From NCBI GenBank assembly GCA_003707115.1, contig PPNB01000004.1:62001-126000 (forward strand): a stretch of 64,000 nt of DNA, read 5' to 3'. Made by a program: the position numbers and the translations under genes. The DNA comes from Tortispora ganteri. Taxonomy: Eukaryota. Positions 14,084-57,943 of this stretch are shown here, one piece after another (within the stretch, counting starts at the first letter, position 1; every line of letters starts with the position of its first letter). The notes beneath the pieces were generated by a model. The model was not told where the DNA came from. It saw only the letters and a list, made by a program, of their open reading frames with translations, and did no database searches.

Positions 14084-14156
14084 ACCCTGCTAGCTCAATT
14101 GGCAGAGCGTGAGACTCTTAATCTCAAGGTTGGGGGTTCGAGACCCCCGTGGGGTG
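14084..14156 (+). tRNA. tRNA-Lys (anticodon CTT), intronless
   Basis: Acceptor ACCCTGC/GTGGGGT, A box TAGCTCAATTGG, anticodon arm TGAGA-CTCTTAA-TCTCA, T arm GGGGG-TTCGAGA-CCCCC, followed by an oligo-T Pol III terminator. Confidence 0.95.
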
Positions 14157-29681: not shown

Positions 29682-29716
29682 ACGCGTTAAAAGACCTACA
29701 AAGTCTTTGAACGCGT
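29682..29716. repeat. Inverted repeat, 14-bp arms (13/14 match) with a 7-bp asymmetric spacer; each arm has ACGCGT at its outer end
   Basis: ACGCGTTAAAAGAC-CTACAAA-GTCTTTGAACGCGT, ending 21 bp before the ATG at 29738. Confidence 0.85.
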
Positions 29717-29737
29717 GAAGAAGATTCTGTCGAGGAA

Positions 29738-32134
29738 ATGTCTTTTTCAACATCATTATCTACATCATACGAACAAGAAAATACGGATAAGGGTGTAGAT
29801 CCTGTCGATACTTCGCATACTTTGGATATCTCTACTGAAGAATCTAGGGCTCAATTGGCTCGCAGATTACTGTCGCAAGTCAATCTTAGTGCATCTTCCT
29901 CGCTCATACACCAGGCTGTGAACACCAGTAAGACATACGAACATCACGTTAGACATTACCGTAAATGGTGCGATGAAGTTTTCGCAAACGAAGATGTGCT
30001 AACGCGTTATTATCCCACTATGATCCAGATACGCGGCTATGTGGAGTATAGGCTGAATCATCCAGAATTTAGTTCAAATGGGAAACGGCCTGCTCCTAAA
30101 ACAATAGATGGAATTATTGCGGCACTAAAAGAGCACACTCGTTTTGAGAAAGATAAAATTGAAAGCGCAGGTAAGCGATGCCCTGTTTTGAGTGAACAGG
30201 AAGAATCATTCCAAGCTAAAGAGCTAAAGAAACTCCGGAGGCATTTCAGAAAACTGGCCGCCGAAGAAATGGAAAACGGCTACGAACTCCAGGATGCTAC
30301 TTCTCGAAAGGCGTATGTAGAGAAAGAGCTTATTGCGATTGTTAAATGGCTGTGTATGCAGCATGGACGCGAAGCACATTATGTTTCGATAGCGTCTATG
30401 GTGTTGACAGCTCATTCAGGAATGTACCGTGGAGACTCGATTCGGAAGATGAATATAGCTAGCTTAAGCGTATGGAGAGGTGTTATTAGCAATCGCTACT
30501 GTGATGCCATTAAGGTGACTACGACTGCTTCGAAGACAAACAAATTCGGCAGGACTGAAGAAACGCTGGCGTTACGTCACTTGGATCCTAGACGCTGTCC
30601 GGTCGCATTTTTGGGATACTACATGATCGAACGGTTCTATGTAGCCTGTGACAAGCTAATCCCATTTGCAGACCCTCGGGAATTCATTAAATGTAAGCTG
30701 TACCGACGCTACGGAACGGATAAGAAGCTAACCGAGCCCATGAATTTCAGATCACATTTCAAGCCTATTAAAGAATCCAAGATACAGCTTTCAATGACAT
30801 TTTACAAAATTATGTGCTCGAGCGAAAGTTCAGCTGCTAATGAAGCAATTCAAAATGGAGCTTCATATGGTTCAGTAATTAACCATGGTCAGTGGGGTAC
30901 TTCCAACGACACCATGAACAACGATTATTTGTTCGGAGACAATACTGCAACTCCATGTAAATTAGCTGGAATTGTGGGAAGCGAAAAGTATGTAATGGTT
31001 CGCGACGGCGTTCAACCGTCATTGGAGTTGTGCTTGAAAGTTTTCCCATTCATTGAAGAGTGGCATACGCTTATTGAGAATAACACGCTAAAAGAAAGGG
31101 TTAAAGAAGAATATCGGAGGTATGATCTTTCTCTCACTAACACGGCGCTTTTGGATTCACACGTTGCCAAGATCAAGACAGCTGTGGAACTGTTCATTTA
31201 TCTCGCTAAATGTGTGCTGCAAGATAGGATATTTCTAGAGAAGTGCGCTCCAGAATTGACTGAATTGCCGTCATTTAAGTCGAGTGCATTCCTTACAGAG
31301 GAATATGCTGAGTTCAGGAAGGAACAAGAGATATTTATCGCTAGTAGAGCTGTTATGCCGGAGGAAGAGTCTTCGGAAACGGTGCAAGGATCTTGTCCAT
31401 CTAGCAAACAAATTCACAACAATCAATTGTGTAGTACTTTGCAGGAGTTTTTACAAGAGCTGCGCGAGGACAGAGCAGCCAGGGCGGAGGAAAGAGCAGC
31501 CAGGGCGAAGGAAAGAGAGGAAGATAAAGAACGTGCCTTACAGTTTCAAAATCTGATCCTTGCGTCACTACAGCAGATATATACACATCCGATGCACCTT
31601 GAATCATCTCCGGGTTCTACCAGCGCGATAATGAGCCGAACATCTTACGCTTGCTCCAACGCTGATCAATATATTCTGCCAAGTAGTGCCGAATTGACGC
31701 AACCTGCTAGCAATCTACCTACAGTGACAAATCTTGAAGATAATGGACCTACAGAAGCAGTTACTTTGACAAGGAAAGACAAAGAGTTGATCGAATATAT
31801 GAAAGGAAGAGCATTTGTAAAACCGGTATCGATACGAGACATATGGTGGGAATATGCTCATGGCATAGCCGGTAAGCCACCACTTCGTGAAATGGAGAGC
31901 AAATACAAAACCTTATGGAGAGGTGGAGCACGTTCATCTCTTACTCGCACGTTCCGTCGCCGCAAGCGAATATACTCGGCCATAGAAAATGGCATATCAT
32001 CAGGGTTGAGTGAAGAAGAAGCAATTGAGAAGCTGCAACGCTTCTGTGCTCGTCCCACAGATCCCACTAAGCTGCGAGATCAAGCATGGTTTGATAGGGC
32101 TGATCTGATGCAATGTTTCGGCAGTCATACTTGA
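29738..32134 (+). CDS. Crypton (CryptonF)/Ndc10-like protein: tyrosine-recombinase-fold domain, coiled coil and C-terminal GCR1_C domain (copy 1)
   Basis: MYRGDSIR, SKTNKFGR, ALRH.DP..CPV, HGQW...MNNDYL, KVFPFIE, IWWEYAHG...KPPLREME.KY...WR......F.RRK.IY. Confidence 0.85.
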   Translation: MSFSTSLSTSYEQENTDKGVDPVDTSHTLDISTEESRAQLARRLLSQVNLSASSSLIHQAVNTSKTYEHHVRHYRKWCDEVFANEDVLTRYYPTMIQIRGYVEYRLNHPEFSSNGKRPAPKTIDGIIAALKEHTRFEKDKIESAGKRCPVLSEQEESFQAKELKKLRRHFRKLAAEEMENGYELQDATSRKAYVEKELIAIVKWLCMQHGREAHYVSIASMVLTAHSGMYRGDSIRKMNIASLSVWRGVISNRYCDAIKVTTTASKTNKFGRTEETLALRHLDPRRCPVAFLGYYMIERFYVACDKLIPFADPREFIKCKLYRRYGTDKKLTEPMNFRSHFKPIKESKIQLSMTFYKIMCSSESSAANEAIQNGASYGSVINHGQWGTSNDTMNNDYLFGDNTATPCKLAGIVGSEKYVMVRDGVQPSLELCLKVFPFIEEWHTLIENNTLKERVKEEYRRYDLSLTNTALLDSHVAKIKTAVELFIYLAKCVLQDRIFLEKCAPELTELPSFKSSAFLTEEYAEFRKEQEIFIASRAVMPEEESSETVQGSCPSSKQIHNNQLCSTLQEFLQELREDRAARAEERAARAKEREEDKERALQFQNLILASLQQIYTHPMHLESSPGSTSAIMSRTSYACSNADQYILPSSAELTQPASNLPTVTNLEDNGPTEAVTLTRKDKELIEYMKGRAFVKPVSIRDIWWEYAHGIAGKPPLREMESKYKTLWRGGARSSLTRTFRRRKRIYSAIENGISSGLSEEEAIEKLQRFCARPTDPTKLRDQAWFDRADLMQCFGSHT
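31472..31513 (+). repeat. 21-bp tandem duplication (RAARAEE/RAARAKE) within a coiled coil
   Basis: AGAGCAGCCAGGGCGGAGGAA followed by AGAGCAGCCAGGGCGAAGGAA. Confidence 0.9.
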
Positions 32135-32162
32135 CATAGGCATGATGCCTATGTCAAGTATG
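32126..32162. repeat. Perfect 18-bp inverted repeat with a 1-bp spacer, overlapping the stop codon of Crypton-like copy 1
   Basis: CATACTTGACATAGGCAT-G-ATGCCTATGTCAAGTATG. Confidence 0.97.
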
Positions 32163-32432
32163 GCCTCTAAAATCAAGTAGTATAGAGTCTAACAAGGATT
32201 ACAATTTAATATACATCTGTTTTATTAACTGAATGTCTCAATATCCGCTACCAGAGAGGATGCATGTAGGTTGCTAGGGACCTTGTCAGTGTCCTTTTTC
32301 GGTCTGGTCTATAAGTATAAGGATAAGTTTGCTTTGAACAAGTCGTTTTGCTTCCTTGTCGATTCCCAGGATTGTCCAAACGCCATAAACCCTGCATTAC
32401 TACTAAAAACAGGTCTTAGCAAAATTTGAGTA

Positions 32433-33269
32433 ATGTTGCCTCAAATTGTGCTACTGCTATGCGCAATTACGCAGTTTGTACACGCATGGTCTGAAAAGGA
32501 TTACGAGCTATTTGAATTGAAGGACGCTGTAGAGAAGGCCGAGGGAACAGGAGTGACATTCTATGACTGGCTCGATGTGTCGCCATACAGCAGCAACGAG
32601 GAGCTGACAAAATCGTACAGAAAGCTGTCCCGGAAGCTTCACCCGGACAAGGCACCCAAAAAGGGGAAGAAAGCTGCCAATGAACGATTCTCGAGGCTAT
32701 CTGTTGTGATAAGTATCCTCAGAGACCCCGAGATGCGTGAACGGTACGACTACTTTCTAAAGCATGGGTTCCCCAAGTGGAGAGGAACTGGCTACTACTA
32801 CAGACGTCTGCGTCCGGGTCTTGGATCTGTGCTAGTACTACTAGTCTTTCTGTTCAACTGGGCCCACTACGGAGTCATACGCATGAATGCGCGTGGACAC
32901 AGGCGACATATGCAATATTGTATTGATGCGGCTAGAGATATGGCTGAGTGGCCGCAAAAAGTGCAAACGCTCAAAAAGGTCCAGCTGTACAATGGGAAGG
33001 TGTTCTCGGTGAAGGCCAGTGGCAAAGTTTCATTATTAGAGATTGAAGACGGCGTTGAAGTGGAGTATCCGCTAGATACAGAAGAAATTCAGATGCCAAC
33101 CTGGCGAGACACATTTGTGTACCTACTCTATCGCAAGTTGTACAACAAATTGGCTAATTCACAAACCGGAGAGAAAAGCAAGGGGCATAGAGTCGGTTTA
33201 AAAGACGCGAGCAAACCTGCACCAAAACCATCTACGATCAAACGAAAGAAACCGAGCAAGAAAGCTTAA
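32433..33269 (+). CDS. ERJ5: ER J-domain co-chaperone
   Basis: Signal peptide, WSEKDYELFEL, HPDK, GFPKWRGTGYYY...RPG, one TM segment. Confidence 0.88.
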   Translation: MLPQIVLLLCAITQFVHAWSEKDYELFELKDAVEKAEGTGVTFYDWLDVSPYSSNEELTKSYRKLSRKLHPDKAPKKGKKAANERFSRLSVVISILRDPEMRERYDYFLKHGFPKWRGTGYYYRRLRPGLGSVLVLLVFLFNWAHYGVIRMNARGHRRHMQYCIDAARDMAEWPQKVQTLKKVQLYNGKVFSVKASGKVSLLEIEDGVEVEYPLDTEEIQMPTWRDTFVYLLYRKLYNKLANSQTGEKSKGHRVGLKDASKPAPKPSTIKRKKPSKKA

Positions 33270-33309
33270 AAAAATGCGAACGCGCTAGCTAGAGATACTG
33301 GCGGACAAC

Positions 33310-33942
33310 TCATACGGAGAACAGTCTGCTGCCAACATCACCCAAGCCGGGAATAAGATATCCACTGTCATCGAGATCGTTGTCGATGGCTCCGACGAAT
33401 ACTAGAACGTCCGGGTACAGTCTAGAGATCTCCTGTAACCCGCGAGTGGATGCAACCAGGCTTATAACGACTATCCTTTCGGGACCCCATTCATGTACAG
33501 TTTGTAGGGCTGCGGACATAGTACCTGCTGTAGCTATTACGGGATCTATCACGAATACAAGCGGTGGTGCTTCGTTTGGAGGCAGCCTATTGTAGTACTC
33601 CACGGGGCTGAGACTGGTAGCCTCTCTGAACATGCCTAGATGGTGCACAGGGACCGGGAACGGTAGCATTGCCTCGACAGCCTCTACCATGCTCAGTCCA
33701 GATCTCAATATAGGCACAATCGCGGCTTCTAGTGGCGAGACTTTCGTGGTAGGGTAGTTTGTATTCATTAATGAGCGTGCATCTGGTCCTTTTGACATGG
33801 TGAACGACGAGGCCACGGCGTCGGCGGCTAGAATACTGGTGATATCAGAGATCGTGGAGCGCATGTCGCCGTACGAAAGTTTTTGACGCAATTTGTCAAT
33901 TCTTACTTTGACTGTGGGATGCGAGCTTTCAGTGACGGGCAT
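33310..33942 (-). CDS. Uracil phosphoribosyltransferase-like protein (Urg2/Urc6-type)
   Basis: VPILRSGL.M, VIDPVIATAGT PRPP motif, GYLIPGLGDVG.RLF. Confidence 0.88.
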   Translation of the reverse strand: MPVTESSHPTVKVRIDKLRQKLSYGDMRSTISDITSILAADAVASSFTMSKGPDARSLMNTNYPTTKVSPLEAAIVPILRSGLSMVEAVEAMLPFPVPVHHLGMFREATSLSPVEYYNRLPPNEAPPLVFVIDPVIATAGTMSAALQTVHEWGPERIVVISLVASTRGLQEISRLYPDVLVFVGAIDNDLDDSGYLIPGLGDVGSRLFSV

Positions 33943-34937
33943 ATTTGCGCGATAAATGGGGTTTGGAGCGGCGATTTCGTATGGATGTCAATCTAAGAAA
34001 GCCGCAGGAACACGTCTCTGTTAGGAGATGATGCGGGGCAACTTGGGACGTCTCCTTTTAGCTCGTTATCTGGTAGGGCATAATATTTAAATCGCGGTAT
34101 TTGGCATCTTTAGGTCGTAGCATTTGATGATTTTACAACTGATGACCATAGAGATCCCGTTCGTTCCAAAAAACTCCTCTTAGCCTAAAGAACCCGGTTC
34201 TGTATGTATACAGACCAATGCATTGATGTAACCTGTTCACTCTTGCAGCGTGCAAGGCGAAGATGTCAAAATATCAGATATATACAGGCCGCTTAGATCG
34301 ATTATTTTAAATTTAAGACAAATTAGAGCGCTAAATACCGTTCTCTCGGTATCTACGAATCTTTGAAGTCCAGTTTAGTCGCAATACAACTTGTCGCAGA
34401 ATGCGATCCAGTCTTTGGTCTGGCCGTTAAGAAATCTCAACGGCAATCTGGATCAAGGTTGAACCTCAATCGCTTGCCTTCTCATTCTGTGCTATATTTT
34501 AGCGTACATCTCAGTGTCATCTGAGCTTCAATTTATAGACATTTAGCAGTACTTGTTTGTGAAAGTTCGTGAGAGTGTCTTGGTGTTCTATTGAAAGATG
34601 ATCAACAGGGAGAGATCGCAATATAAATGTTCACGAGTGAACTCGATGCAGTTTAAAGATGTTGAATTTCTATGCACCCCTAGTACTCTTGTTTGCAGAT
34701 AACGAAAAGTAACAACAAACGCGTATTGTGAAGCCTGTAATTTACGTGTGTGGTTTAAGAGGTAGTTAAATTGCTCTTTTGTCTTGCGGTTGTCATGTGG
34801 TTTGTCAGTCAGTACAAGACAGGCCGCCGCTTAAGGAAGGATCTCTTTTATTTAGAGTTGAGCGGTTGGCGGCGCAGAAGGATATTATTATCGGAGGGGC
34901 TATGTAGATCCCCCTTTCGACATACTGTGAAGAGCAC

Positions 34938-36149
34938 ATGGATCTTATAGACATAAAAGCAGTACGAAAAAATGCACAGGAAATCAACAAAATTGCTGAA
35001 AAGAATGAATTGATTTATTTTGACGTCGATATGACCAAATGGGCTGACGTTGTTTCCGCCGTAGCTGCCACTATCACAAGGGACTACACCGACTACTCGC
35101 GCATTCCGCCGCATGGGCGATGGCAACATTTCAATGTAGGAAAAGTTGACCGTATCAGCGACCTGATAGGTAGATTGCATGGATCAAACCTCGAGAAGGC
35201 GAAAAGTCTGTGGGACCTTTTCTTCGTGTCTGTGTTGTTGGATGCTGGTGCAGGCAATCAGTGGTCCTACAAATCCAAGGAAGGCGCGACTGTATCTCGC
35301 TCTGAAGGTCTCGCCGTTGCATCAATTGAAATGTTTGAGAAAGGTCTGTTTTCCTCTTCAGAGTACACATATAAAGCGGATGTATCCGCCCTCTCGGCGC
35401 TTACTGTAGCCCAGTTAGGCATGGGCCTTCAAGTTTCAGATCACAACCCCATAGAAGGGCTGGTAGGACGCACTACTGTCCTGAACCAGCTTGGCTCTTC
35501 TCTTAAATCTCGAGGGTTTGAGCGACCTAGCTGTATTCTCGAGAAGCTTATAAGCTCTAATAGCACAAAACTATCGGTTGCTGCGCTATGGTCCGAACTA
35601 CAGGATGTACTGCTGCCTGCATGGCCTGATAGAGTCGTTGTAGATGGCGTCAAAGTGGGAGATGCATGGCCATGCGAGGCGCTTGCTAAGCACAGGGGCG
35701 TGCCATTGGGCCACCATGATTCTATTACTCCTTTCCACAAGCTAACGCAGTGGCTAACATACTCACTTCTTCCGATCCCTAAGACTCTTTTGCAGAGCGA
35801 GTGGATCGGTGAAGAGCTCCTAACTGGTCTTCCAGAGTATCGGAATGGAGGATTGTTGGTAGACCTAGGCTTACTTAAGCTGAAGCCCAATGATAATGTG
35901 AGCATTACCGAGGACAATGGCACTCCGGTATTTCCTGCCACTGACCCAGTAATAGTCGAGTGGAGAGCATGCACAGTTGGGTTTTTAGATAAATTACTAC
36001 CTGAACTGCGCGCTAAACTGAATTATCACTTTTCACTCGCCCAAATGCTAGAGGCCGGCAGCTGGCTTACAGGACGCGAGCTTGCAAAGGAGAAACGACA
36101 GAATGGCGCACCGCCAATCGCGATAATCAGCGACGGTACCCTGTTCTGA
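34938..36149 (+). CDS. URC4: Uracil catabolism protein, DUF1688 family (Urc4/Urg3-like)
   Basis: IPPHGRWQHF, VSVLLDAGAG..W, RSEGLAVAS, FHKLTQWLTYSL, TGLPEYRNGGL, IVEWRA, SDGTLF. Confidence 0.9.
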   Translation: MDLIDIKAVRKNAQEINKIAEKNELIYFDVDMTKWADVVSAVAATITRDYTDYSRIPPHGRWQHFNVGKVDRISDLIGRLHGSNLEKAKSLWDLFFVSVLLDAGAGNQWSYKSKEGATVSRSEGLAVASIEMFEKGLFSSSEYTYKADVSALSALTVAQLGMGLQVSDHNPIEGLVGRTTVLNQLGSSLKSRGFERPSCILEKLISSNSTKLSVAALWSELQDVLLPAWPDRVVVDGVKVGDAWPCEALAKHRGVPLGHHDSITPFHKLTQWLTYSLLPIPKTLLQSEWIGEELLTGLPEYRNGGLLVDLGLLKLKPNDNVSITEDNGTPVFPATDPVIVEWRACTVGFLDKLLPELRAKLNYHFSLAQMLEAGSWLTGRELAKEKRQNGAPPIAIISDGTLF

Positions 36150-36327
36150 GATAAATTGTATGAATTGTTATATGCGCAGATACAGTACTAGGCTTATATG
36201 CGAGAAGCTGGTTTTACTAAGGCGAGAAATATATTTGCACCCTGGCTGATCCGCTCACTCCCACCTACCTAACTTCTCTTGATGTTAATGTTATTACACT
36301 CGACTACCACACATTACACATTACGCA

Positions 36328-36831
36328 ATGCAGAAATCTTCTACTGCCAGCAGGCGACTTCTGAAAGAATACAAACAGCTGCTAACGGATACACCGGATG
36401 GGATATCTGCCGGTCCTATAGACGAAAATAACATGTTTGAGTGGGAATGCATCATCCAAGGTCCTGACGGCACTCCGTACGAAGGAGGCGTGTTTCCCGC
36501 GATTTTGAAGTTTCCAGCGGATTATCCTTTGAATCCTCCAACTATGAAGTTCACTACTCCACTTTTTCATCCTAATGTATATCAAGATGGTACCGTGTGT
36601 ATATCAATTCTCCATCCGCCTGGCGACGATCCCCATATGTACGAGACCGCTGCCGAACGATGGAGTCCCATCCAGAGCGTTGAAAAGATCCTTTTGAGTG
36701 TCATGAGCATGCTCTCTGAACCTAATCCGGAATCAGGTGCCAATATAGACGCATGCAAAATGTTCAGAGATGATTTACCAGGATTCAAGGCAGTAGTGCG
36801 TACCAATATTAGACAGTCTTTGGGTCTGTAA
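36328..36831 (+). CDS. UBC7: Ubiquitin-conjugating enzyme E2 (ERAD)
   Basis: [39 protein letters not shown]. Confidence 0.95.
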
Positions 36832-36916
36832 CCTTTTCACTTGAGTTGGCCATTTATCTACGCGGTGTATTCACTTGAACAACGTATATTTTTTACTCAT
36901 TATCTTGCTTCTGCTG

Positions 36917-37366
36917 TTATTTGTCATCATCATCTTCGGGCTCAATATCGAAATTCTCCAGTAGCATTGTGGCAATATCATATTTCTCACGATCTTCGCA
37001 TTCATAAAAGGCATCATGCCCTTGGCTGTTTTCGATGAATGGATCTGCGCCTATATCAATAAGAACCTTTGCAGCTTCCAAACCTCCAAACTGAATACTC
37101 CAATGAAGCGCGGTACTCCCTCCTGCGTTCTTTTTATTTACGACTTCCGTGAGATCAGTTCCTCTATCCGCGGCGATTTGCTGCAGTTTCTTTAGTACTG
37201 CAACATTTCCGTTGGCTGCAGCGACATGAAACGGTGTGTTTTCATTCTCATCCGTAGCGCTGAAGATGTCAAAATCTTTGTATTCATTCACAAACGCGTC
37301 CAGGTATTCCCGATCGTCAACGCGCGCTGCATACACGATATCTGCAACTTCTTCTGCGGTAGGCAT
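36917..37366 (-). CDS. YAR1: Ankyrin-repeat protein, Yar1-like
   Basis: Short acidic protein with NTPFHVAAANG and N..GSTALHW repeats. Confidence 0.75.
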   Translation of the reverse strand: MPTAEEVADIVYAARVDDREYLDAFVNEYKDFDIFSATDENENTPFHVAAANGNVAVLKKLQQIAADRGTDLTEVVNKKNAGGSTALHWSIQFGGLEAAKVLIDIGADPFIENSQGHDAFYECEDREKYDIATMLLENFDIEPEDDDDK

Positions 37367-37690
37367 CGTTCAATCGAAATGTGCGTAACTTTACACTTTT
37401 TCTACCTCTTTACCTGTGAGCTCAGCTGCTAACATCCAACATTCGTCGGTTAGCGTGGCGAGTTCTACGTATGACAGGAAGGAATCAATTTCGTCTATAT
37501 TGCTTTGAGAATCTATGCTATTATTTAAACCACCAATTATCTACACACTGAAATCATATTTTATAATAAAAAAATGACAACCAATTTTGAGCTCCAATAA
37601 ATTACTGGGTTAGGGTTTATAAGTTATTCACTGAAGCGCTTGCTGTTGCGCTTCCTTTAACATCTCTACTACGTTCCTATCCTCTTAGGT

Positions 37691-38980: not shown

Positions 38981-39123
38981 GCATTGAATGAAACCTGTCG
39001 CCCATCATCTTTTGAAGATTTGGTGGACATATTACGAGCAATTGCTTCATAAATCTTGCTTTTGTTATAAAACTCTTTTACTCTTTTGAGAAAGCAAAAT
39101 AACTAAATAATGATATGAGATTT

Positions 39124-40578
39124 CTAGCCTGATTCTTTTAATAGTTTTAGAATTTCTTTCCGATTTGCGTTAATCTCTTTTTCTTCGATAATTCGCTCTT
39201 CCCACCTATTGTACAAGTTGAGTTCTCCTATATGAATAGCTTCTTTTGCTGCTTCATCTATTTTCAGACTATAATCCTTTAAAGCACTGTCCCAACTTTT
39301 AACCATACGCTGAACAGTTATGTACGCAGCAAGAGTAGCTGCTGCATCAAGAAATCCTAACTCTTTAACTCCACAAACCAGGGCAATGGTCAGAGGCAAT
39401 GATATCGCCGCTGTGCCGATAAGAGAATTGTATAAACATTTTTTCGCAGCCAACTGTAGGTTATTTAAATCTTCGGTCAAAAGCTTCTCGTGATATTCCA
39501 GAACGGGGTTGTTTTCGTATACCTGATCTCCTAGATTTTGAAGCTCCACAGTAGGCTTTAGAGATGTACTCTTATTCAGAGTGAAACCGTCGATTTTCCC
39601 AAGGATGTAGTCGTAACGACGACTAGCTTCAGGTAAAAATCTATCTAAAAGGAAATCAGAGATATCTACCGGTAGTGTACTTGTCATTCCCGTATAAAGT
39701 CTCCACCATGGCATATATGTTAAATGCAATTTTGTTAATGCGGGTTGCAGTTTAGTCTGAAGTTCCTTGTGTGCATTCCTAGCCCATCCTATCCGCAAAG
39801 AAGCTAAATAATCTGTGTTCGACTGCGATTGGATAACAACTTGTTCGTCGGACACTGTGAATTGTTCACAAGTTGCGATAATGGACTCTAATAAGTCAGA
39901 AGCTGGGCTTCTAGTTAAACGAGACCTCAGTTCAGGCAAACCAGATTCTTTTTCTAATTGTAAGAATTCGGAAGCCATACTTGGAGACCGTGACAATATG
40001 TCAATGGCCTTTGCGCCTTTGCATGTTGAAATAGTGAACGCCGGAGGTATATTAGCCGATATTCCGTCAATGGCTGTTATTGTAGGGTATCCTGAGTTGT
40101 CGCTGTGTCTGAGGGCATTGACCGAAGTTCCTACTAAGATATGTAACGTAGTGTTTTGGGCAAGGCTCGAATCTACCGAAGGGCAATATGCCACCGCCAT
40201 GGTTGATAAAGCTGATGAAGGGAATGTGAAGTGGATAGAATGGTCATCAATCCCGTTGAGGGGCTCAACAAACTGAGAACCGTACTCGACTAATATCGGC
40301 TGGTCGTTAGATATGCTATCAAACCGATTGCAAAATTCTGGCCATTCAGAAGCTAGAGGGTCCGCAGATAATAACTTTGTGAGTGTTTTGGCGGACTGTT
40401 TAGAAGCAGCGTCATAAGGTATGATCGCTACCCTTGGTGTAGCATTCTGGTTGAGTTGCCGCTGCAATTCCTTAACACGAGAATGTAGAGAATCAACATT
40501 AGGCCATATCTCTAGTATCCGCGGTAGAACACGTGGGCTCCTGGCTAGGTTCGAGCAGAAACGTTTGCTTAAGAACAT
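39124..40578 (-). CDS. Probable mitochondrial membrane protein, Mmc1-like
   Basis: Basic presequence-like N-terminus, W...AHKELQ..L...L....WW.L motif and C-terminal hydrophobic pair; family recalled, not searched. Confidence 0.55.
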   Translation of the reverse strand: MFLSKRFCSNLARSPRVLPRILEIWPNVDSLHSRVKELQRQLNQNATPRVAIIPYDAASKQSAKTLTKLLSADPLASEWPEFCNRFDSISNDQPILVEYGSQFVEPLNGIDDHSIHFTFPSSALSTMAVAYCPSVDSSLAQNTTLHILVGTSVNALRHSDNSGYPTITAIDGISANIPPAFTISTCKGAKAIDILSRSPSMASEFLQLEKESGLPELRSRLTRSPASDLLESIIATCEQFTVSDEQVVIQSQSNTDYLASLRIGWARNAHKELQTKLQPALTKLHLTYMPWWRLYTGMTSTLPVDISDFLLDRFLPEASRRYDYILGKIDGFTLNKSTSLKPTVELQNLGDQVYENNPVLEYHEKLLTEDLNNLQLAAKKCLYNSLIGTAAISLPLTIALVCGVKELGFLDAAATLAAYITVQRMVKSWDSALKDYSLKIDEAAKEAIHIGELNLYNRWEERIIEEKEINANRKEILKLLKESG

Positions 40579-40736
40579 GTATGGGAGACAGAAAGGGATA
40601 AGTTAGTTTGGGTACTCTAATATATGTTAAGCGTGATGTACTTAAGAGCTACGAGCGTAACAAATGCAATTGGCGATTCGCATATCCTACAGTGAAATTA
40701 TATTTAGCAATTCACATATTAACGTGATGATTCCCT

Positions 40737-41783
40737 TTATTCAGTATCCTTATCAGATTTCTCAAGGTCTGCCTGAGCCAACTCTTCAGCCCATGAAAGC
40801 AAAGTTAGGCGGTATTTATCAGCTTTCATGAGAGTATCTGCGACATTGCTGAGCAAACTGATATATTCGTGACTTCTCTGGACTGCCATTTGTGCTAGCT
40901 GCTTTAATTCATCCGCAGCATCAGGCCTCAAATCGACATATGACCTCGAACGAGGGATTCCGTAAAAGGGATCAATTCTGGAGTTGTCCTCAACATTAGA
41001 CCTTAAGCTTCGTACAGGAACTAGAGCTTCCTCTTCGTTCAAATTTGAATTATGCTGAGAGGACTCAATGTCATTTTCTGTCTTCGTGATGATTTCTTCA
41101 ACAGTTGACTCTACCACTGCGTCAATTGTATTGGCATCCGTTTCGCTCTTGAAAATCTCAGGGAGGTCTTCAAACACAGGAGGAATATCATCAGAAAGAA
41201 GCGTATCCAGTAAGTTTAACAAATGAGTATAATTCTCTTTTTCACTAAATGATATGTCAATGATTCTGCGGGCCAATAAAGTAATATTCTCACTCTTGTA
41301 AGACCTTGAAATCGATGGGTGTGTCAATATATCTGTGAAATCACTCAACGGAGCAAGAATCTTCTCTATCTTAACGTTTTCTGCCAAGTACTTGTCGATA
41401 TCAGATTCTTCGCCATTTTCGTCAAACTCCATTGCTTTCAGAACTTTCCGTTTCTTGTTGGCAAATTGTAACGGCTGGTCAGACATAGCTGAGCTATATG
41501 GTTTCCATAATTTTCCCTCATGCATTTCTTTGGCGTTGACTTTCAGTTTATTTCCGCGATTACTAGTAGCCTCGCCAATTGAGGAATCCGAGTCTGATCC
41601 TATATTTATCGGTTAATATCATTCTCATTTACTCTGGACCTTCATCCTTTCGTACTTACCATCATAGTTCCTAGCCAGAGCTTCTTTTAAATTTCTATCA
41701 CATGTTAATATTAGCCAGTAAATTACACAATTGTATAAGCGAACAACTTACGCTATCTCTTCTACTGCGTCTTCTTCCACCAT
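40737..41783 (-). CDS. RXT2: Rpd3L complex subunit Rxt2; exons 41752-41783, 41660-41694, 40737-41599 (introns 41695-41751 and 41600-41659)
   Basis: Two GTAAGT...TATTAAC...TAG introns give an in-frame MVEEDAVEEIANLKEALARNYDGSDSDSSIGEATSNRGNKL; RXT2_N motifs NRGNKL and LAPL....DIL.HPS. Confidence 0.85.
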
Positions 41784-42139
41784 TGTGTATATCGGTCTCT
41801 ACTAATGTCCCATACAGAGCCCAGTGTAAACCGAATTAGAGTTTAGCAGTAACGAAGAAGATTGAGTTTTCTCGAAGTTAGTGTGGTAAGAATGGAAGCT
41901 AGTTAAAAGGTATTAGTAGTCAATATAATGGGTATCAGGATTGGCGAATTATTAATCCGTGTTGTGCAGACCAACTGGATCGTTTCCATAAGAGATATGG
42001 GAGACCGTGCTTATGATCAGATATGAACGGCGAATACTACCAAAATAAGGTGAGACGTACAATCAATTACTGTAACAATTTCTTAACATTCATAATTTGG
42101 CGTATACTGCTGATGTACTATAGAGATATCTGATAGATA

Positions 42140-43900
42140 TCACTTCTCAGCCAACAAATAATTCAGGCAGTTTTGTGGTTCGGGATTCTGAACTATATAT
42201 CGTAGACACAATCTTTCCCGTGGAAATGTCGCATATAGTACCACCTGGCGGTTGAAATAAGAGCTGCTTTTGGTATCAGGTATATGTTCTTCAAAAACCA
42301 TACCAGTACAGGCTGAATTATGACCAATACTGAGGTTATGTTCATTTTCATCTGCAAATAGCACTAGTTTGTTGGCAAGTTTGAACATTAACATCCTCGA
42401 GCGTTCATCAATGACAACTTGTCCGATAACAATCCCGTTACTTGGAGATCCGAAAGCCAATAACCTGAAGGGGGGATAATAAGCAGAAAGGTAAATACGG
42501 TCAGCAAATGGGTCCCCCCCGCCATCCAAAGGATTATCAAGAACGCCCAGCATTCTACCTTTTGTGGAGACAAACACAATACTTGATGCAGTTCCCACAA
42601 CGTAGCATCCTTCGGAGAATACCTGGTCGGCCTCGTCATCATCTAGAGAACGACTATAATATCGAGAATTGCAATGACTAGAGTCAGCACCTAGACTTCC
42701 TGTTCGTGATCGATTTGAAACTGAACCGGGCCTAACAAGCACAAGCCGAGACGCAGCATCTTTCACATCTAAAATGATATCTTTCCCTGGTACATGCGCT
42801 AGTTCCCATGCGCGAATCTTATGTATGCGCACAGTTCGAGGTTCGCGAAAGAACCGGAAGCCATCTTTATCAGCGGACCCTAGCTCAAATAGTTGGCCGT
42901 CAACGCACAGAGCTGCTAGGATATTATCTCTCCAGCAAACTGAAGGAACATTATAGGATAGCTTCATGCTTTGCCTAACAGGACCTTCAATCTCAAATTT
43001 TTCAGACTGAGAATAGCTCAGTTTCATGACGGCCACGCGATAACTGTTCAGCCCGATGGACAAGTAATTACCAAACCGAGAAAGACTCCAAGGTGATTCT
43101 TCAAGTGAAAAGGTAGTGAAATAATTTAATCCAGCAGATATAGCTGCTGTAGTTATTAAAGTAACTATTCCGCAATCGAATAGCAGTATTAACGTTTCTT
43201 TAGGATTGCTATCCTCTGCAGGAATGTTTTCAATAGATATGTGATTAACTATTCCTCCGGTTGAGCCATATATTGTACCGTTAGGAAGAAAATCCATTAA
43301 GTTCATTCTCTTAAAGTACGAATATGACCCAGACATTGGCCATCTTCTTGAGTTATATATTAGCATTTCCACCCCCTGAACCGAGACTATCCATGATCTC
43401 TCAAGAGAAACAGCTGTAAGATTGTGTCTAGATGGATAAGGATCAATATTCTCAGTCTCAAAATCTAATATTGCGGGTCGTGCTGTACGCACAATAAGAT
43501 TAGAGTGTTCTGTAAGAGCTTGATCTGGGTTCTGCTGTACGCATGTGAGTCTATATTTCATAGAGTCGGTTGGATAGGAAGAGGCACTAACGTTTGCCGA
43601 ACTTCCAAGATAAAGAGATGAAAATTCCAATTCAATAGGAGCGAGGATAGATAAATCGAACGAGCGTCTGCCTAGTGGACCAGGCACCACAGATTCATAA
43701 AAGTCATTCTCGTCATCAGATGACATATCATCAAGATAACTTCCGGACTCCCCTGACACAATGTCAACATTTAAGAAGTCCGGCGTATCAGTACGGGAAA
43801 ATTGGTATTCACTGGTACTAAATCGAGCAACACTTGGCTGCCGATGATTACTCAAGTTCGCAGGACTATATTCTTCATTTGTATCTTCAGAGTTGTTCAT
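42140..43900 (-). CDS. Crt10-like beta-propeller protein
   Basis: HNLTAVS, VNHI......ETLILLFDCG.V, ESPWSL....LSIGLNS..VAV, NVPSV motifs resemble the CRT10 family. Confidence 0.55.
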   Translation of the reverse strand: MNNSEDTNEEYSPANLSNHRQPSVARFSTSEYQFSRTDTPDFLNVDIVSGESGSYLDDMSSDDENDFYESVVPGPLGRRSFDLSILAPIELEFSSLYLGSSANVSASSYPTDSMKYRLTCVQQNPDQALTEHSNLIVRTARPAILDFETENIDPYPSRHNLTAVSLERSWIVSVQGVEMLIYNSRRWPMSGSYSYFKRMNLMDFLPNGTIYGSTGGIVNHISIENIPAEDSNPKETLILLFDCGIVTLITTAAISAGLNYFTTFSLEESPWSLSRFGNYLSIGLNSYRVAVMKLSYSQSEKFEIEGPVRQSMKLSYNVPSVCWRDNILAALCVDGQLFELGSADKDGFRFFREPRTVRIHKIRAWELAHVPGKDIILDVKDAASRLVLVRPGSVSNRSRTGSLGADSSHCNSRYYSRSLDDDEADQVFSEGCYVVGTASSIVFVSTKGRMLGVLDNPLDGGGDPFADRIYLSAYYPPFRLLAFGSPSNGIVIGQVVIDERSRMLMFKLANKLVLFADENEHNLSIGHNSACTGMVFEEHIPDTKSSSYFNRQVVLYATFPRERLCLRYIVQNPEPQNCLNYLLAEK

Positions 43901-44543
43901 TCTGTATAAATATAACCATAGAATAATCCCTAAAGAGAGAGATTAAACTATTGGTAATGCTCTACACCCAGAACTAATTGATCATGAACGCACTGTTAAA
44001 GCTAAATATTGGTTAAGCTAGACGGGAGTTTGTGTAAAAAGGCGGGAACCGGGGTATAATGACGAGTTGAGCTGTGAAGTCACGAAGGGCCCGCCGCTAT
44101 TCGTTGAACATTCATTCACCTAAAGGCGGCAGTGACGTACACTTTTTCATACAGTTAAGTGGAGTAACTAACTATATACCCTCCATATTCTTGTACTGTG
44201 TTTTGTGGCACATGACCACCTTTACTATTGGAAGACGACAGAAGCCTGTCCCTACTGTACTTCGGTCTGAACTACCTCTAGAGGCCGTTAATATCATTGA
44301 AAAAATATTGGTTAATACACGTACATATGGTCAAATATAATTATATACTTTGTCAATTAAGATAGCATTTCTGTTGTGCACAGGCCGTAAACTTGTGAGA
44401 ATGCCTCGGTTTTTTGAAACGCCCATCAAGCGGGCTACATATATCAACTAAAAGAAATAATTGTATACATATTTAGTTATATGTATTGAGTGAAGCAATA
44501 GTTAAATAAGCGGTAAGATATAGCGCGGTGTGAGCTAGTGAAG

Positions 44544-47000
44544 CTAAGAAAGCTCTGGAGGCACGTTACCTGCATACAGGAACTTCAATGGCCGGGTTCT
44601 TTGGCCTGGAAACCTTCTGAAATCCTCGAGCATCTTGCAACATTGTTTCGCAGAGTATCCTTTTGATATACCTCTCTCTATAGCGCGGCATATTCTAAAC
44701 CTGCGGCTAAAAGACTTGTTCAAGGCTGTGCCATTTGGTCTCCACTTGTTCCCGTGCTGAAGTTCAAGCATTTTGACTGCAGGAAACCCATTTCGGCCCT
44801 TATAGTACTCTTCCCATATCTGTTCAACTGTTGTGGGAGACTTTATAAAACAAAATCTCTTTGCTTCGTCCAGGTTATGCCAATACGGACGATACGAGTC
44901 TGCAGTTCTCGGACTGCCTGCCTCTGGAGGCCTTTCATGTGTAGACGTTCCATCCGAATGAGAATTTCTACCTGGTACTTGTTCCGGCATTCTAAAAGTG
45001 CCCAAATCGACGCCATTCATTCTATTCAAAGACGCCATGTCCATACCTGTCAAGATGTTGTGTGCCGAATGAGTGTCTTGGTGACTCGACTCATCAAGGT
45101 GCTGTTCTTCTCGAGTCTGGACAACAAGGTGACTATTATCTGGAATATTGAAATGATTGAGGATACTCTTGAGCATCATTTTGTTCTGTTTCGACTCACT
45201 CACTTGCTGCCCCAGAAGAGCCTCAATGCGATCTAGCTGAGCAGATTGCCGTGTCGTATACAGCTCAAAATCATGCGCGTAAGTACGCATATTTGCTTCT
45301 ATGCGGTTCATACTAATCTGACTGTCCACCGCATGTTCTTTAAGGTCCATGCTATCTCGAACAACAATTTCCGGGTCGTTTCTGTGGACGAACTCTGTCT
45401 GTCTCTGGACAAACTCCGCATATTCCGGCGTCTTGAAAACGGGGTGTTGGAAAACCGGGTGAGTGTTATTCAACTCAGGAAACTTTTCTATCACAAACTT
45501 CTTATCTTGAAGTAAAACCTTTCGCAAATGTTGGAATAGTGAGACAACCTGTGTTACAAGCGTGCCATTGCCCTTTTCCGTGTCATCGATCACTTCGTGC
45601 AGAACGTTATCTTTTATCGCATCCACATACTTGTTGATAAAAGGAAATATCTGCCTCTGTAGATATTCAGGGGGATCTAAAGCAGCTCTAGGATTGAAGT
45701 ATGTGCCATTTTTAGGAAACCCTGCCAAAGAAAGTACCACAGTTCTCGGAATCGCATAAATGTAAGAATTTGTGAGAGCGCTGGACTTATCGCCAGAACT
45801 CCATCCACCAAAGCGCTCAATATCGTAAACAGATACACCATTCATCTCGGCCTCATGCGCAGCACACGCCCTAGATGAATGAGTGATATGGTCTGTTGAG
45901 ATATTCAGTTTATCCAACATAGCTTTCATAGGTAGGTAATGAGCTCGATAAGCTGACCTTTCTTCCTTGTCAGTTTGTTTCGCGTGGACTTTACGGCCAT
46001 CGGACCGCTCAGAAATGACTGCCTCGTAGTAGTAATGTCTTTTGCTTGTAAAATCAAGTGGTCTGTGTCCATTAATTTCGTATTTTTCAGCCATATGCAT
46101 TGCCAACCAGAAATGCACGCACCGCTCGACAGTTTTGTGTCTGAGGGCACATACGGTTTCCTTATGGCCACATTGATTTGTTTTAGAATATGTAGGAGTA
46201 CTAAAGATTGCAGTTTCGTCACCTACTGCAGCTATTGCACCGCACCGCCCAACGTAGAGAGTGATCAATCTTGTCTTCCGAAGGGAGTTTCCACTGCACA
46301 TGAAAGAATGACACGCAGCGATGCTAGCCGGCAGAGATGTCATGCTACGTCTGCTCATACTGGTATGGAGTAGATGGTCCATAATTTTGAGAAGGTCTTC
46401 AGTACTGTAAGCGCATCTATTTACGTAATCCGTGTGATCCATTACCTTGTCATGATGTATAACTTTCTTGTATTTCACGTTCCTTAAAAATTGCTTAACA
46501 TAGTCCCCTCTAGGTCCAGGCCACTCCGGAATCCCTTCTTTTTTCGCTTCGCGAACTTGTTCTTTGTGTAAGTACACCAAGGTACCTACATAATTGTCCA
46601 GTGTTCCGACCGCGTACGGCACTGCCATCACATTTCCAGATTCATCTGTACAATGCTTTTTGGTACCTGAGTCTTCTAGGTTCTTAAGAAAACTCAAAGC
46701 TTTGGCTTCAGTGACAATATATCTTTGTAGTCCAACTTTTTCCTGATAGATTTCATCGCAGAATGCATTCCAAGCCTTGATTTTAATATCATGATTTCTT
46801 TTGGTATTCTCGGGCATGAGACTACTCGACTCTTGAGCGACCTGCCTTTCTGCTTCTCGCTCGTAAATTTTAGCCCATCTCTCTGTAGCCACTTGCGCAT
46901 TTATCTCTAAAAGAGTGGCTCTGCTGACACTTGTCAATCTACCAAGCGGATCTCTTTGTTCCATCGGAGTTTCTCCTGCAACGGTACAAGGTGCTTGCAT
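44544..47000 (-). CDS. Crypton (CryptonF)/Ndc10-like protein: tyrosine-recombinase-fold domain plus GCR1_C (copy 2)
   Basis: PENTKRNH, VTEAKALSFL, SKTNQCG, ALRHK....C, THSSR, FGGW...LTNSY, LAGF, LQRQIFPF, LRKVLLQD, HPVFQHPVF, TVEQIWEEY..G....PAVK.LE..HG.KWR.......FSRR. Confidence 0.88.
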   Translation of the reverse strand: MQAPCTVAGETPMEQRDPLGRLTSVSRATLLEINAQVATERWAKIYEREAERQVAQESSSLMPENTKRNHDIKIKAWNAFCDEIYQEKVGLQRYIVTEAKALSFLKNLEDSGTKKHCTDESGNVMAVPYAVGTLDNYVGTLVYLHKEQVREAKKEGIPEWPGPRGDYVKQFLRNVKYKKVIHHDKVMDHTDYVNRCAYSTEDLLKIMDHLLHTSMSRRSMTSLPASIAACHSFMCSGNSLRKTRLITLYVGRCGAIAAVGDETAIFSTPTYSKTNQCGHKETVCALRHKTVERCVHFWLAMHMAEKYEINGHRPLDFTSKRHYYYEAVISERSDGRKVHAKQTDKEERSAYRAHYLPMKAMLDKLNISTDHITHSSRACAAHEAEMNGVSVYDIERFGGWSSGDKSSALTNSYIYAIPRTVVLSLAGFPKNGTYFNPRAALDPPEYLQRQIFPFINKYVDAIKDNVLHEVIDDTEKGNGTLVTQVVSLFQHLRKVLLQDKKFVIEKFPELNNTHPVFQHPVFKTPEYAEFVQRQTEFVHRNDPEIVVRDSMDLKEHAVDSQISMNRIEANMRTYAHDFELYTTRQSAQLDRIEALLGQQVSESKQNKMMLKSILNHFNIPDNSHLVVQTREEQHLDESSHQDTHSAHNILTGMDMASLNRMNGVDLGTFRMPEQVPGRNSHSDGTSTHERPPEAGSPRTADSYRPYWHNLDEAKRFCFIKSPTTVEQIWEEYYKGRNGFPAVKMLELQHGNKWRPNGTALNKSFSRRFRICRAIERGISKGYSAKQCCKMLEDFRRFPGQRTRPLKFLYAGNVPPELS

Positions 47001-47140
47001 TCCAGTGGCAGTAACGCAGTTTATAGATCCTCTATATTATGCTTAAATGCACTCAACAATATTTCAATTACTCTGGTTACAAATTATCCTCTTAATTTTT
47101 TGTTTATGTGCCGTTTAAGTCAAACTAAAGTAGAGGTCAA

Positions 47141-47172
47141 ACGCGTGCTGGTAAATGCTATGATTTACGCGT
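47141..47172. promoter_or_regulatory. Twin ACGCGT (MCB-type) boxes upstream of Crypton-like copy 2
   Basis: ACGCGT at 47141-47146 and 47167-47172, 140-170 bp upstream of the ATG at 47000. Confidence 0.6.
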
Positions 47173-47294
47173 CTAATTGAATATGGGGTTGGTGTTGATA
47201 TTATCTTAGCAACTGAGAACCTATCTGGCTATGTTACCTAACCCTGATTCCGATCATATAAAAAAAAGCACCCAACCTTACCTTTGAACCTTAG

Positions 47295-47323
47295 ACAATT
47301 GTAAGCGGTAAGCTTACAAGTGT
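47295..47323. repeat. Inverted repeat 12-5-12 (one mismatch) containing TAAGCGGTAAG, which recurs at 44507-44517
   Basis: ACAATTGTAAGC-GGTAA-GCTTACAAGTGT. Confidence 0.7.
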
Positions 47324-57694: not shown

Positions 57695-57943
57695 TTTTAT
57701 GTAATCTTTCATAATGTATTTAACTAGTAATGCGCAACATTATATATTATAGCGCAAGATAAGCTTTTTACGGATATATATTAATATAAACTACTCTTCG
57801 TGTCTCCATAATGCACTCCTGGATGGCAAAAGTACCCTTGAGAGCCCACAAGGACCCTTCATATTGTAATATATCTATATCATTTTAACATAGGCCATAT
57901 TTAAGTTAGTTCAAATCATAAGTACCATGAGATCCACATTTAG

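What the first reader, a model, noticed from the sequence alone, without database searches (positions are those of the whole stretch)
29738..47000. Two intact, divergent Crypton/Ndc10-type recombinase-fold genes facing each other, each missing a different catalytic residue
Seen: two ~800-aa uninterrupted ORFs (29738-32134 +, 44544-47000 -) share motif order but are far apart in sequence. They converge across 12.4 kb of ordinary genes. Copy 1 keeps the first Arg (MYRGDSIR, CGT at 30428), the Lys (SKTN), G.W and the Tyr (30926), but HxxR reads CSSE (30815-30826). Copy 2 keeps HxxR (THSSR, 45870-45881), the Lys, GGW and the Tyr (45762), but the first Arg is Ser (MCSGNSLR; AGT at 46293-46295, one base from Arg). 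Established: CryptonF transposons encode a tyrosine recombinase plus GCR1_C, and domesticated relatives include Ndc10/Cbf2, Gcr1, Msn1 and Hot1. Inference: intact frames with broken catalytic sets point to domesticated DNA-binding proteins, possibly an undescribed lineage-specific family (kinetochore, transcription or DNA organisation), or a partnered system. True complementation is doubtful, because in Flp only the Tyr is supplied in trans.
Basis: partly seen in the sequence, partly recalled or inferred. Interest (0 to 1): 0.85.

Follow-up and report, generated by a model that had tools for sequence, protein, structure and literature searches.

The report
Two crippled Crypton transposon copies in yeast
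The two large genes are copies of two different Crypton-type DNA transposons in a budding yeast, each with a damaged recombinase active site; a sister species lacks both at these sites and carries its own copies elsewhere, so they are mobile elements and not fixed host genes or a working pair.

Summary
Both ORFs (29738-32134 +, 798 aa; 44544-47000 -, 818 aa) are intact and carry NDC10_II plus GCR1_C. They are 24% identical, and both fold as Cre/Ndc10-like tyrosine recombinases (pLDDT 88).

The interpretation (domesticated family or partnered system) is not supported. In contigs of a related species (run X3), one contig is colinear with the 12.4 kb between the genes. It joins 29235 to 32428 and 44016 to 47479, so both genes are absent there. 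That species carries a 92% and a 91% identical copy in the middle of two other contigs. The window's own species holds a second copy-1-like sequence. A decayed third fragment lies at 34198-34515.

The closest named protein (Tortispora caseinolytica, 87% identical to copy 1) reads PKHRWY. Parsimony then gives an intact common ancestor, with each copy damaged separately and recently. A sample of 37 differences gives dN/dS of about 0.22.

Best reading: recently mobile, low-copy CryptonF elements that are now catalytically crippled. This is a new member of a known kind. Domestication in progress stays open as a minority reading.

The parts
29738..32134 (+). Copy 1 ORF, 798 aa: N-terminal core-binding-like domain, tyrosine-recombinase catalytic domain (hexad RKCEWY; H and second R lost), helical extension, C-terminal GCR1_C (residues 695-768)
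29673..32147 (+). Stretch of copy 1 that also aligns to the related species' copy at another locus (X3 record 17: about 29673-29707, then 29727-32147; 188 other letters and 21 gaps over 29727-32147). This is the minimal mobile unit.
   Evidence: tables 5 and 8; the left limit is inferred from 'side 35'
29236..32427 (.). Segment skipped by the related species' syntenic contig (X3 record 18 joins 29235 to 32428, skipping 3192 letters). The letters between the two sides in that contig are not known.
   Evidence: table 5
29682..29716 (.). 14-7-14 inverted repeat (93% complementary) with ACGCGT at both outer ends, 22 bp upstream of the copy 1 ATG. It could be a paired MluI-box promoter element or a recombinase-type dyad site.
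   Evidence: z -5.1
32126..32162 (.). Perfect 18-1-18 palindrome over the stop codon of copy 1. The similarity to the related species' copy ends at 32147, just past its centre.
   Evidence: z -8.7
44544..47000 (-). Copy 2 ORF, 818 aa: same architecture as copy 1, hexad SKHRWY (first R is Ser, AGT), GCR1_C at residues 717-795
44199..47173 (-). Stretch of copy 2 that also aligns to the related species' copy at another locus (X3 record 19: 44371-47173 with 261 other letters and 7 gaps, plus about 104 letters ending at 44302)
   Evidence: tables 5 and 8; the left limit is inferred from 'side 104'
44017..47478 (.). Segment skipped by the related species' syntenic contig (X3 record 18 joins 44016 to 47479, skipping 3462 letters). 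By contig arithmetic there is room for at most about 700 other letters between the two sides.
   Evidence: tables 5, 7 and 8
47141..47172 (.). Second close pair of ACGCGT motifs, 141-172 bp upstream of the copy 2 ATG, ending where the similarity to the related species' copy ends
34198..34515 (-). Decayed fragment of a third element: 109 codons with 3 in-frame stops, 29% identical to residues 39-147 of copy 2 (W..FCD..Y....GLQR..V/DTE motif kept)

Best explanation
The two genes are single copies of two divergent subfamilies of CryptonF-type DNA transposons. Each is one ORF encoding a tyrosine recombinase plus a GCR1_C DNA-binding domain, with short flanks, in a budding yeast close to Tortispora caseinolytica. 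Shown: the elements occupy different chromosomal sites in two sister species, and both window sites lack them in the sister. Inferred: the family therefore moved by recombinase-mediated excision and integration after or around the species split. Shown: the two window copies carry substitutions of residues that the family otherwise keeps (first Arg to Ser in copy 2; His and second Arg to Cys and Glu in copy 1). Inferred from what is known of Cre and Flp: neither can now cleave DNA by itself. Because the closest relative of copy 1 is damaged at a different residue (first Arg to Pro, HxxR intact), parsimony gives an intact common ancestor, so the lesions are recent and independent. The frames are still open either because the damage is young or because the DNA-binding parts are still under selection. 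Their convergent arrangement around 12.4 kb is coincidental. They are not a partnered system.
For: Architecture and fold: NDC10_II plus GCR1_C in both. AlphaFold models have pLDDT 88.5 and 88.4. The best Foldseek matches are Ndc10 and Cre, with TM on the target up to 0.72. The family profile matches S. cerevisiae Ndc10 at E 5.5e-34 over both the recombinase part and the C-terminus. Family: 1068 relatives at E<=0.001. Named ones come from Tilletia and Emergomyces, and one 90% cluster in Tilletia maclaganii holds 6 members including fragments. Mobility (contigs laid at >=80% likeness): X3 record 18 (30.9 kb) is colinear with 32428-44016 and joins 29235 to 32428 and 44016 to 47479. X3's copy-1 homologue lies at 55759-58200 of a 94.8 kb contig, and its copy-2 homologue at 56573-59372 of a 193.6 kb contig. 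No strand change was reported. In the window's own species (X1/X2) summed depth over copy 1 is about 150 against about 85 in the flanks, with variant contigs at depth 37-47. Host intergenic DNA mostly fails to align between the two species (7 skips), yet the elements' short flanks do align. Third relic. Active sites: 54 of 63 relatives read RKHRWY, the window copies read RKCEWY and SKHRWY, and P0003 reads PKHRWY. Past constraint: of 37 listed differences in codons 11-254, 17 are nonsynonymous and 20 synonymous, giving dN/dS about 0.22 and binomial p 1.7e-5 against neutrality.
Against: The element ends were not resolved. No terminal direct repeats or target duplications could be defined, because the sister species' sequence at the joints is not visible ('between: not known'). 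Copy number is low and identities are 91-92%, so nothing shows current activity. All read evidence comes from contigs of what may be one data set filed twice (X1 and X2 give identical figures) plus one run of the relative. The left side of the copy-1 joint rests on a 64-letter piece. The frames are fully open. If half of the differences to the sister's copies had fallen neutrally on the window copies, only 2.7% (copy 1) and 1.2% (copy 2) of simulations keep the frame open. The catalytic box is the most diverged 9-residue window between P0001 and P0003, while the N domain (8.5% differences) and helical extension (4.0%) are better kept than the catalytic domain (14.3%). That pattern also fits a retained non-catalytic role.
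Confidence: 0.65

Rival explanations
1. Young exaptation: the proteins have lost catalysis but are kept by selection as sequence-specific DNA-binding proteins (regulators of the Gcr1/Ndc10 type), although their loci are not yet fixed between sister species.
For: Both 800-aa frames are intact and both GCR1_C domains are full-length. dN/dS is about 0.22 in the sampled third of copy 1. The HxxR box is the single most diverged 9-residue window between P0001 and P0003 (5 of 9), while the N domain and helical extension are better kept than the catalytic domain. Few neutral simulations keep the frames open. In the tree both cluster (SH-aLRT 95) with four other proteins that have degenerate hexads, one of them a Babjeviella protein that UniRef names GCR1-like.
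Against: Both loci are empty in the sister species and the homologues lie elsewhere. The T. caseinolytica homologue of copy 1 is annotated as truncated before GCR1_C (647 aa), and its contig alignment has 21 gaps. No copy-2-like protein is annotated anywhere at more than 29% identity. Purifying selection between copies is also expected for a transposon lineage that was active until recently. The 7-row clade joins long branches (warns of this).
Confidence: 0.2
2. Still mobile: the window copies are non-autonomous but are moved in trans by an intact paralogue elsewhere in the genome, or the substitutions are tolerated.
For: A second copy-1-like sequence exists in the window's species at about half the single-copy depth. 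It is identical to the window over 30227-30439, so it keeps the first Arg. A shared contig that starts at 30826 suggests it differs from the window inside the E363 codon. It may therefore carry the full hexad (inference from contig ends only).
Against: The hexad of that second copy was not read. No circle junctions or empty-site contigs were seen in X1/X2 (table 5). From recalled knowledge of Cre and Flp, mutants of either active-site Arg are inactive, and only the Tyr is ever supplied in trans.
Confidence: 0.1
3. Partnered system: the two convergent recombinase-like proteins act together on the 12.4 kb between them (inversion, excision or complementation of active sites).
For: Only the arrangement itself, the complementary pattern of lost residues, and a shared paired-ACGCGT feature upstream of both.
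Against: In the sister species the interval is colinear without either gene, and its two homologues lie on two different contigs. No inverted or direct repeats link the two ends. The lost residues belong to the part of the active site that each monomer supplies for itself.
Confidence: 0.03

Closest known systems
CryptonF DNA transposons of fungi and oomycetes (Goodwin et al. 2003, recalled; Kojima and Jurka 2011, PMC3212892, passages read)
   Same: One ORF with a tyrosine recombinase followed by GCR1_C; no terminal inverted repeats; low copy number; different insertion sites in related genomes. The nearest full-length relatives (27-29% identical) keep the RKHRWY hexad.
   Different: Both copies here have substituted catalytic residues. 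The short terminal direct repeats that define Crypton ends could not be located. The host is a budding yeast; the passages I read list only Crypton-derived genes for S. cerevisiae and related yeasts, not elements. That paper's element list is a PDF supplement that I could not see.
Ndc10/Cbf2, DNA-binding subunit of the CBF3 kinetochore complex (PDB 4aco, 6gyp, 6gys)
   Same: Best or near-best structural match. The family profile aligns to Ndc10 residues 22-499 and 709-945 at E 5.5e-34. The recombinase fold has an incomplete active site.
   Different: Ndc10 is a fixed, essential host gene, described as deeply conserved in Saccharomycotina (PMC13017519, passages). The window genes are absent from the syntenic loci of a sister species. 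They keep 4 and 5 of the 6 catalytic residues. The Scm3-binding domain was not examined.
Gcr1, Msn1, Hot1 and Cdg1: Crypton-derived transcription factors of yeasts
   Same: C-terminal GCR1_C domain (E 2e-19 and 1.4e-20). An MSN1 of Cyberlindnera matches copy 2 residues 605-817 at 35% identity.
   Different: Msn1 and Hot1 share only GCR1_C with Cryptons; Gcr1 has a central part like the recombinase domain, but its catalytic site is not preserved. The window proteins keep the whole fold and most catalytic residues, and their loci are not conserved.
Cre recombinase of phage P1
   Same: Two-domain fold (TM on Cre 0.6-0.72) and the same order and spacing of the R-K-H-R-W-Y residues (Cre numbering recalled).
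   Different: About 14% identity. The window proteins have a long helical extension and a GCR1_C domain that Cre lacks, and each lacks at least one essential Arg.

Membership tests
CryptonF transposon | Single protein with a tyrosine-recombinase domain followed by a GCR1_C DNA-binding domain | tested here: met
   Pfam NDC10_II plus GCR1_C in both; models match Cre and Ndc10
CryptonF transposon | Complete catalytic hexad R-K-H-R-[H/W]-Y | tested here: not met
   Copy 1 reads RKCEWY and copy 2 reads SKHRWY, while 54 of 63 relatives read RKHRWY. Parsimony with P0003 (PKHRWY) implies an intact recent ancestor for copy 1.
CryptonF transposon | Mobility: different sites in related genomes, empty sites, more than one copy | tested here: met
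   The sister species' contig skips both genes and its copies lie on other contigs; a second copy-1-like sequence exists in the window's own species; a relic lies at 34198-34515
CryptonF transposon | No terminal inverted repeats; 4-6 bp direct repeats at the ends | tested here: inconclusive
   No inverted or direct repeats link the ends. The exact ends are not resolved because the sister's junction sequence is not visible.
Ndc10/Cbf2 (kinetochore) | NDC10_II recombinase-like fold with a C-terminal GCR1_C-like region | tested here: met
Ndc10/Cbf2 (kinetochore) | Fixed single-copy host gene at a conserved locus | tested here: not met
   Both loci are empty in the sister species and the homologues lie elsewhere
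Ndc10/Cbf2 (kinetochore) | Assembly with Cep3, Ctf13 and Skp1; Scm3-binding domain | not tested
   No genome is held for the window; no interaction test was run
Gcr1-family Crypton-derived transcription factors | GCR1_C DNA-binding domain | tested here: met
   E 2.1e-19 and 1.4e-20 with nearly full profile coverage
Gcr1-family Crypton-derived transcription factors | Host gene kept in place across species, with the recombinase site long degenerate | tested here: not met
   Not syntenic; only 1 or 2 of the 6 catalytic residues are changed
Active tyrosine recombinase | Both active-site arginines and the tyrosine nucleophile present | tested here: not met
   The first Arg is lost in copy 2 and the second Arg (and His) in copy 1; Tyr is kept in both

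The most novel reading that the evidence does not exclude
A snapshot of Crypton domestication in progress in an early-branching budding yeast. Two element lineages are still at unfixed, species-specific loci. Their proteins are kept under purifying selection (dN/dS about 0.22 in the sample), while the catalytic boxes are the fastest-changing parts and are knocked out independently in different copies and species. On this reading, selection now acts on a non-catalytic DNA-binding role. This would be the kind of intermediate from which Ndc10 and Gcr1 arose. The paired ACGCGT dyads upstream of both would tie their expression to the G1/S programme.
Probability: 0.18. Interest if true: 0.7.

Novelty: new member of a known kind. 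Interest (0 to 1): 0.42.

Why it matters
Cryptons are known in many fungi. For budding yeasts, the papers I could search describe only their domesticated descendants (Ndc10, Gcr1, Msn1/Hot1, Cdg1). Elements that moved within the time separating two sister yeast species, and that match Ndc10 best among solved structures, give a living reference point for how those host genes arose. They also carry a practical warning. A hit to NDC10_II in an early-branching yeast can be a transposon copy and not an Ndc10 orthologue, which matters for surveys that score Ndc10 as 'deeply conserved'.

Tried and rejected
No whole genome is held for the window, so copy number and all ends could not be mapped directly.

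A word-based search found no close homologue of copy 2. None of the 9 window proteins looked up is in the protein collection letter for letter.

A profile of the family scanned over the six frames of the window found only the two genes. The relic is seen only by tblastn with copy 2.

No RNA holder was listed by the look-up of sequencing runs, so expression is untested.

The flanks of the two elements share no significant similarity beyond the ACGCGT pairs. The 18-nt palindrome arm occurs nowhere else in the window. The 10-bp tandem TTCGATCTAA at 29229-29248 has no partner at the other side of copy 1. No tRNA or Rfam family lies near either element.

I rejected the idea that the 12.4 kb interval is an invertible or excisable cassette: it is colinear in the sister species and no strand change was reported.

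A full dN/dS could not be computed. Only 40 of 1620 difference rows were shown, so whole-gene estimates for copy 1 range from 0.35 to 0.8 depending on assumptions.

No complex prediction was run, because the report claims no binding between the two proteins.
Full report
What is there. The window reads like a compact, intron-poor yeast genome with about 41% G+C. At the stated coordinates there are two uninterrupted ORFs: 29738-32134 (+), 798 aa (P0001), and 44544-47000 (-), 818 aa (P0002). They are 24% identical along their whole length, E 1e-43. Both pass Pfam's cut-offs for NDC10_II (E 1.8e-8 and 5.7e-17) and GCR1_C (E 2.1e-19 and 1.4e-20). Ordinary genes fill the 12,409 bp between them.

Fold. 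AlphaFold models were built on 66-row alignments, for residues 41-560 of P0002 and residues 50-545 of P0001. Their mean pLDDT is 88.5 and 88.4, and their pTM is 0.87 and 0.86. Foldseek against the PDB puts the Ndc10 N-terminal domain (4aco; 6gyp/6gys chain E) and Cre recombinase at the top for both. E-values are 1.5e-7 to about 1e-5, with TM on Cre of 0.6-0.72; Flp, Xer and lambda integrase follow. A profile of the family matches S. cerevisiae Ndc10 at E 5.5e-34, in both the recombinase part (residues 22-499) and the C-terminus (709-945).

Catalytic residues. An exhaustive HMMER search with P0002 found 1068 relatives at E<=0.001, the best at 27-29% identity. I aligned the 63 hits that cover the recombinase core with the two window proteins and P0003. 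Of those 63, 54 read R-K-H-R-W-Y in the six catalytic columns.

Who the relatives are. The only close relative of P0001 in the protein collection is P0003, a hypothetical protein of Tortispora caseinolytica NRRL Y-17796. It is 87% identical over 595 residues without a gap. It is annotated at 647 aa, ends before GCR1_C, and Pfam finds only NDC10_II in it. Its hexad is P-K-H-R-W-Y: the first Arg is lost and HxxR is intact, the opposite of P0001. By parsimony their common ancestor had the complete hexad. P0002 has no relative above 29% identity in any annotated proteome. None of the 9 window proteins looked up is in the collection letter for letter. The J-domain neighbour (32433-33269) is 93% identical to its T. 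caseinolytica counterpart. The window therefore comes from an unannotated close relative of that species.

The decisive result: the sites are empty in a sister species. The look-up of sequencing runs listed two runs of the window's species (X1, X2; 0.94 of the sampled words) and one of a relative (X3, 'organism B'; 0.08 of the words). I laid their contigs on window:29000-48999 at 80% likeness or better.

- One X3 contig (record 18, 30,859 nt) is colinear with 32428-44016, on one strand.
- That contig joins 29235 directly to 32428 (skipping 3192 letters) and 44016 directly to 47479 (skipping 3462 letters).
- At the second joint, the contig's remaining length leaves room for at most about 700 other letters.
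- At the first joint, the amount between the two sides is not known, and the left side is a 64-letter piece.
- The same run holds a copy-1 homologue in the middle of a 94.8 kb contig (record 17; window 29727-32147; 188 other letters, 21 gaps).
- It also holds a copy-2 homologue in the middle of a 193.6 kb contig (record 19; window 44371-47173; 261 other letters, 7 gaps).

Sixteen codons in positions 11-254 are changed at the protein level by the differences that X3 shares with X1's variant contigs. All 16 fall where P0003 differs from P0001, and 14 give the same residue as P0003. Record 17 is therefore the same gene as P0003, or nearly so. Both genes thus sit at different loci in the two species, and the interval between them is neither inverted nor otherwise changed.

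More copies. In X1/X2 the summed contig depth over copy 1 is about 150, against about 85 in the flanks and in copy 2. Variant contigs at depth 37-47 carry the sister-like letters (tables 2 and 3). The window's own species therefore holds a second copy-1-like sequence somewhere else. X1 and X2 give identical figures and may be one data set, so this is a single observation.

From contig ends alone, that second copy is identical to the window over 30227-30439, which keeps the first Arg. It seems to differ inside the E363 codon. It could therefore have the full hexad, but this is a lead and was not read.

A third, dead fragment lies in the interval at 34198-34515 (-). It spans 109 codons with three stops and is 29% identical to residues 39-147 of P0002, E 2.6e-6 against the window. 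The sister has 355 unalignable letters in place of 352 there, so the relic may predate the species split.

Anatomy of the units. The stretch shared with the sister's copies is little more than the ORF. For copy 1 it runs from about 66 bp upstream to 13 bp downstream. For copy 2 it runs from 173 bp upstream to about 345 bp downstream. Host intergenic DNA mostly fails to align between the species (7 skips in table 5).

The window has 11 ACGCGT sites. The only two close pairs lie just upstream of the two ORFs, against 0.01 expected by chance.

- The pair at 29682-29716 forms the outer ends of a 14-7-14 inverted repeat (fold z -5.1).
- The pair at 47141-47172 ends where the similarity to the sister's copy ends.

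A perfect 18-1-18 palindrome (32126-32162) spans the stop codon of copy 1 and is unique in the window. The similarity to the sister's copy stops just past its centre. Whether these dyads are promoter elements (ACGCGT is the MluI cell-cycle box, recalled) or recombinase sites is open. No repeats link the ends of either unit, or the two units to each other.

Selection. The listed differences that the sister's copy and the second copy share against the window fall in codons 11-254. There are 37 of them, 17 nonsynonymous and 20 synonymous, over 573 and 159 sites. That gives dN/dS of about 0.22, with binomial p 1.7e-5 against neutrality.

The J-domain neighbour gives dN/dS of about 0.12-0.15 and dS of about 0.24. 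Whole-gene estimates for copy 1 are only rough (0.35-0.8), because 1580 difference rows were not shown.

Between P0001 and P0003 there are 76 differences in 595 residues. The single most diverged 9-residue window is the HxxR box (5 of 9). The N domain differs at 8.5%, the catalytic domain at 14.3% and the helical extension at 4.0%.

If half of the differences had fallen neutrally on the window copies, the frames would stay open in 2.7% and 1.2% of simulations; with a quarter, in 17% and 10%. The lineage was therefore constrained for most of its history and the lesions are recent. A transposon lineage that was active until recently predicts this pattern, and so does a young exaptation.

Tree. 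In a quick IQ-TREE run of the 66 rows, P0002, P0001+P0003 and four other proteins with degenerate hexads form a clade with SH-aLRT 95. One of the four is a Babjeviella protein that UniRef names GCR1-like. All of these are long branches, and the tool warns that such joins may be false. I give this little weight.

Verdict. The best-supported reading is two low-copy CryptonF elements of different subfamilies that moved around or after the split of two sister yeasts and are now catalytically crippled copies (0.65). A young exaptation as DNA-binding proteins is the main rival (0.2). Continued movement in trans is possible (0.1). A partnered system acting on the interval is contradicted (0.03).

Literature. 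Kojima and Jurka 2011 (PMC3212892, passages) define CryptonF as a tyrosine recombinase plus GCR1_C with 6-bp terminal repeats. They list Gcr1, Msn1/Hot1, Cbf2 and Cdg1 as yeast derivatives. Their element list is a PDF supplement that I could not see. Iyer and Aravind 2012 (PMC3537659, one passage) say the same of the Gcr1p family. Three searches found no paper in the held library that reports mobile Cryptons in Saccharomycotina or transposons of this kind in Tortispora. This says nothing about journals outside the library. A 2026 paper (PMC13017519, passages) calls Ndc10 deeply conserved in the subphylum. The present case shows that NDC10_II hits there can be transposon copies.

Noticed in passing
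window 34198-34515 (-): Stop-ridden fragment (109 codons, 3 stops) of a third Crypton-like gene, closest to the N-terminal domain of copy 2. It lies between a phosphoribosyltransferase-like gene and a 403-aa gene. The sister species has an unalignable stretch of nearly the same length there.
   Followed up: partly
window 32126-32162: Perfect 18-1-18 palindrome spanning the stop codon of copy 1, unique in the window. The similarity to the sister species' copy ends just past its centre. It could be a terminator hairpin, a recombinase site or a repair footprint.
   Followed up: partly
window 29682-29716 and 47141-47172: The only two closely spaced ACGCGT pairs in 64 kb (0.01 expected) lie just upstream of the two Crypton ORFs. 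The first is a 14-7-14 inverted repeat, and both distal motifs read AGACGCGT.
   Followed up: partly
window 47194-47401: About 208 bp that is multi-copy in the window's species (summed depth 200-470 against about 85, with loose ends into at least two other contexts). It starts with TGTTG like a solo LTR and lies 20 bp beyond the end of the copy 2 unit. It has no Rfam or tRNA match.
   Followed up: partly
window 29229-29248: Exact tandem duplication of TTCGATCTAA. The sister species' alignment breaks off inside it (29235), at the left edge of the segment that the sister lacks.
   Followed up: partly
window 29716-29737: Both variants seen in contigs of the window's own species read GTTCC where the window has TTC, two single-base differences just upstream of the copy 1 ATG. 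Overall X1/X2 differ from the window by about 0.2%, so the window is a slightly different strain or carries small assembly errors.
   Followed up: no
contigs of X1/X2 laid on window 29667-32334: The second copy-1-like sequence has about half the single-copy depth (37-47 against 85). This could mean a hemizygous or subclonal insertion.
   Followed up: no
window 14084-14156 (+): The only tRNA gene in the window, tRNA-Lys (CTT); no Crypton-like sequence lies next to it.
   Followed up: no
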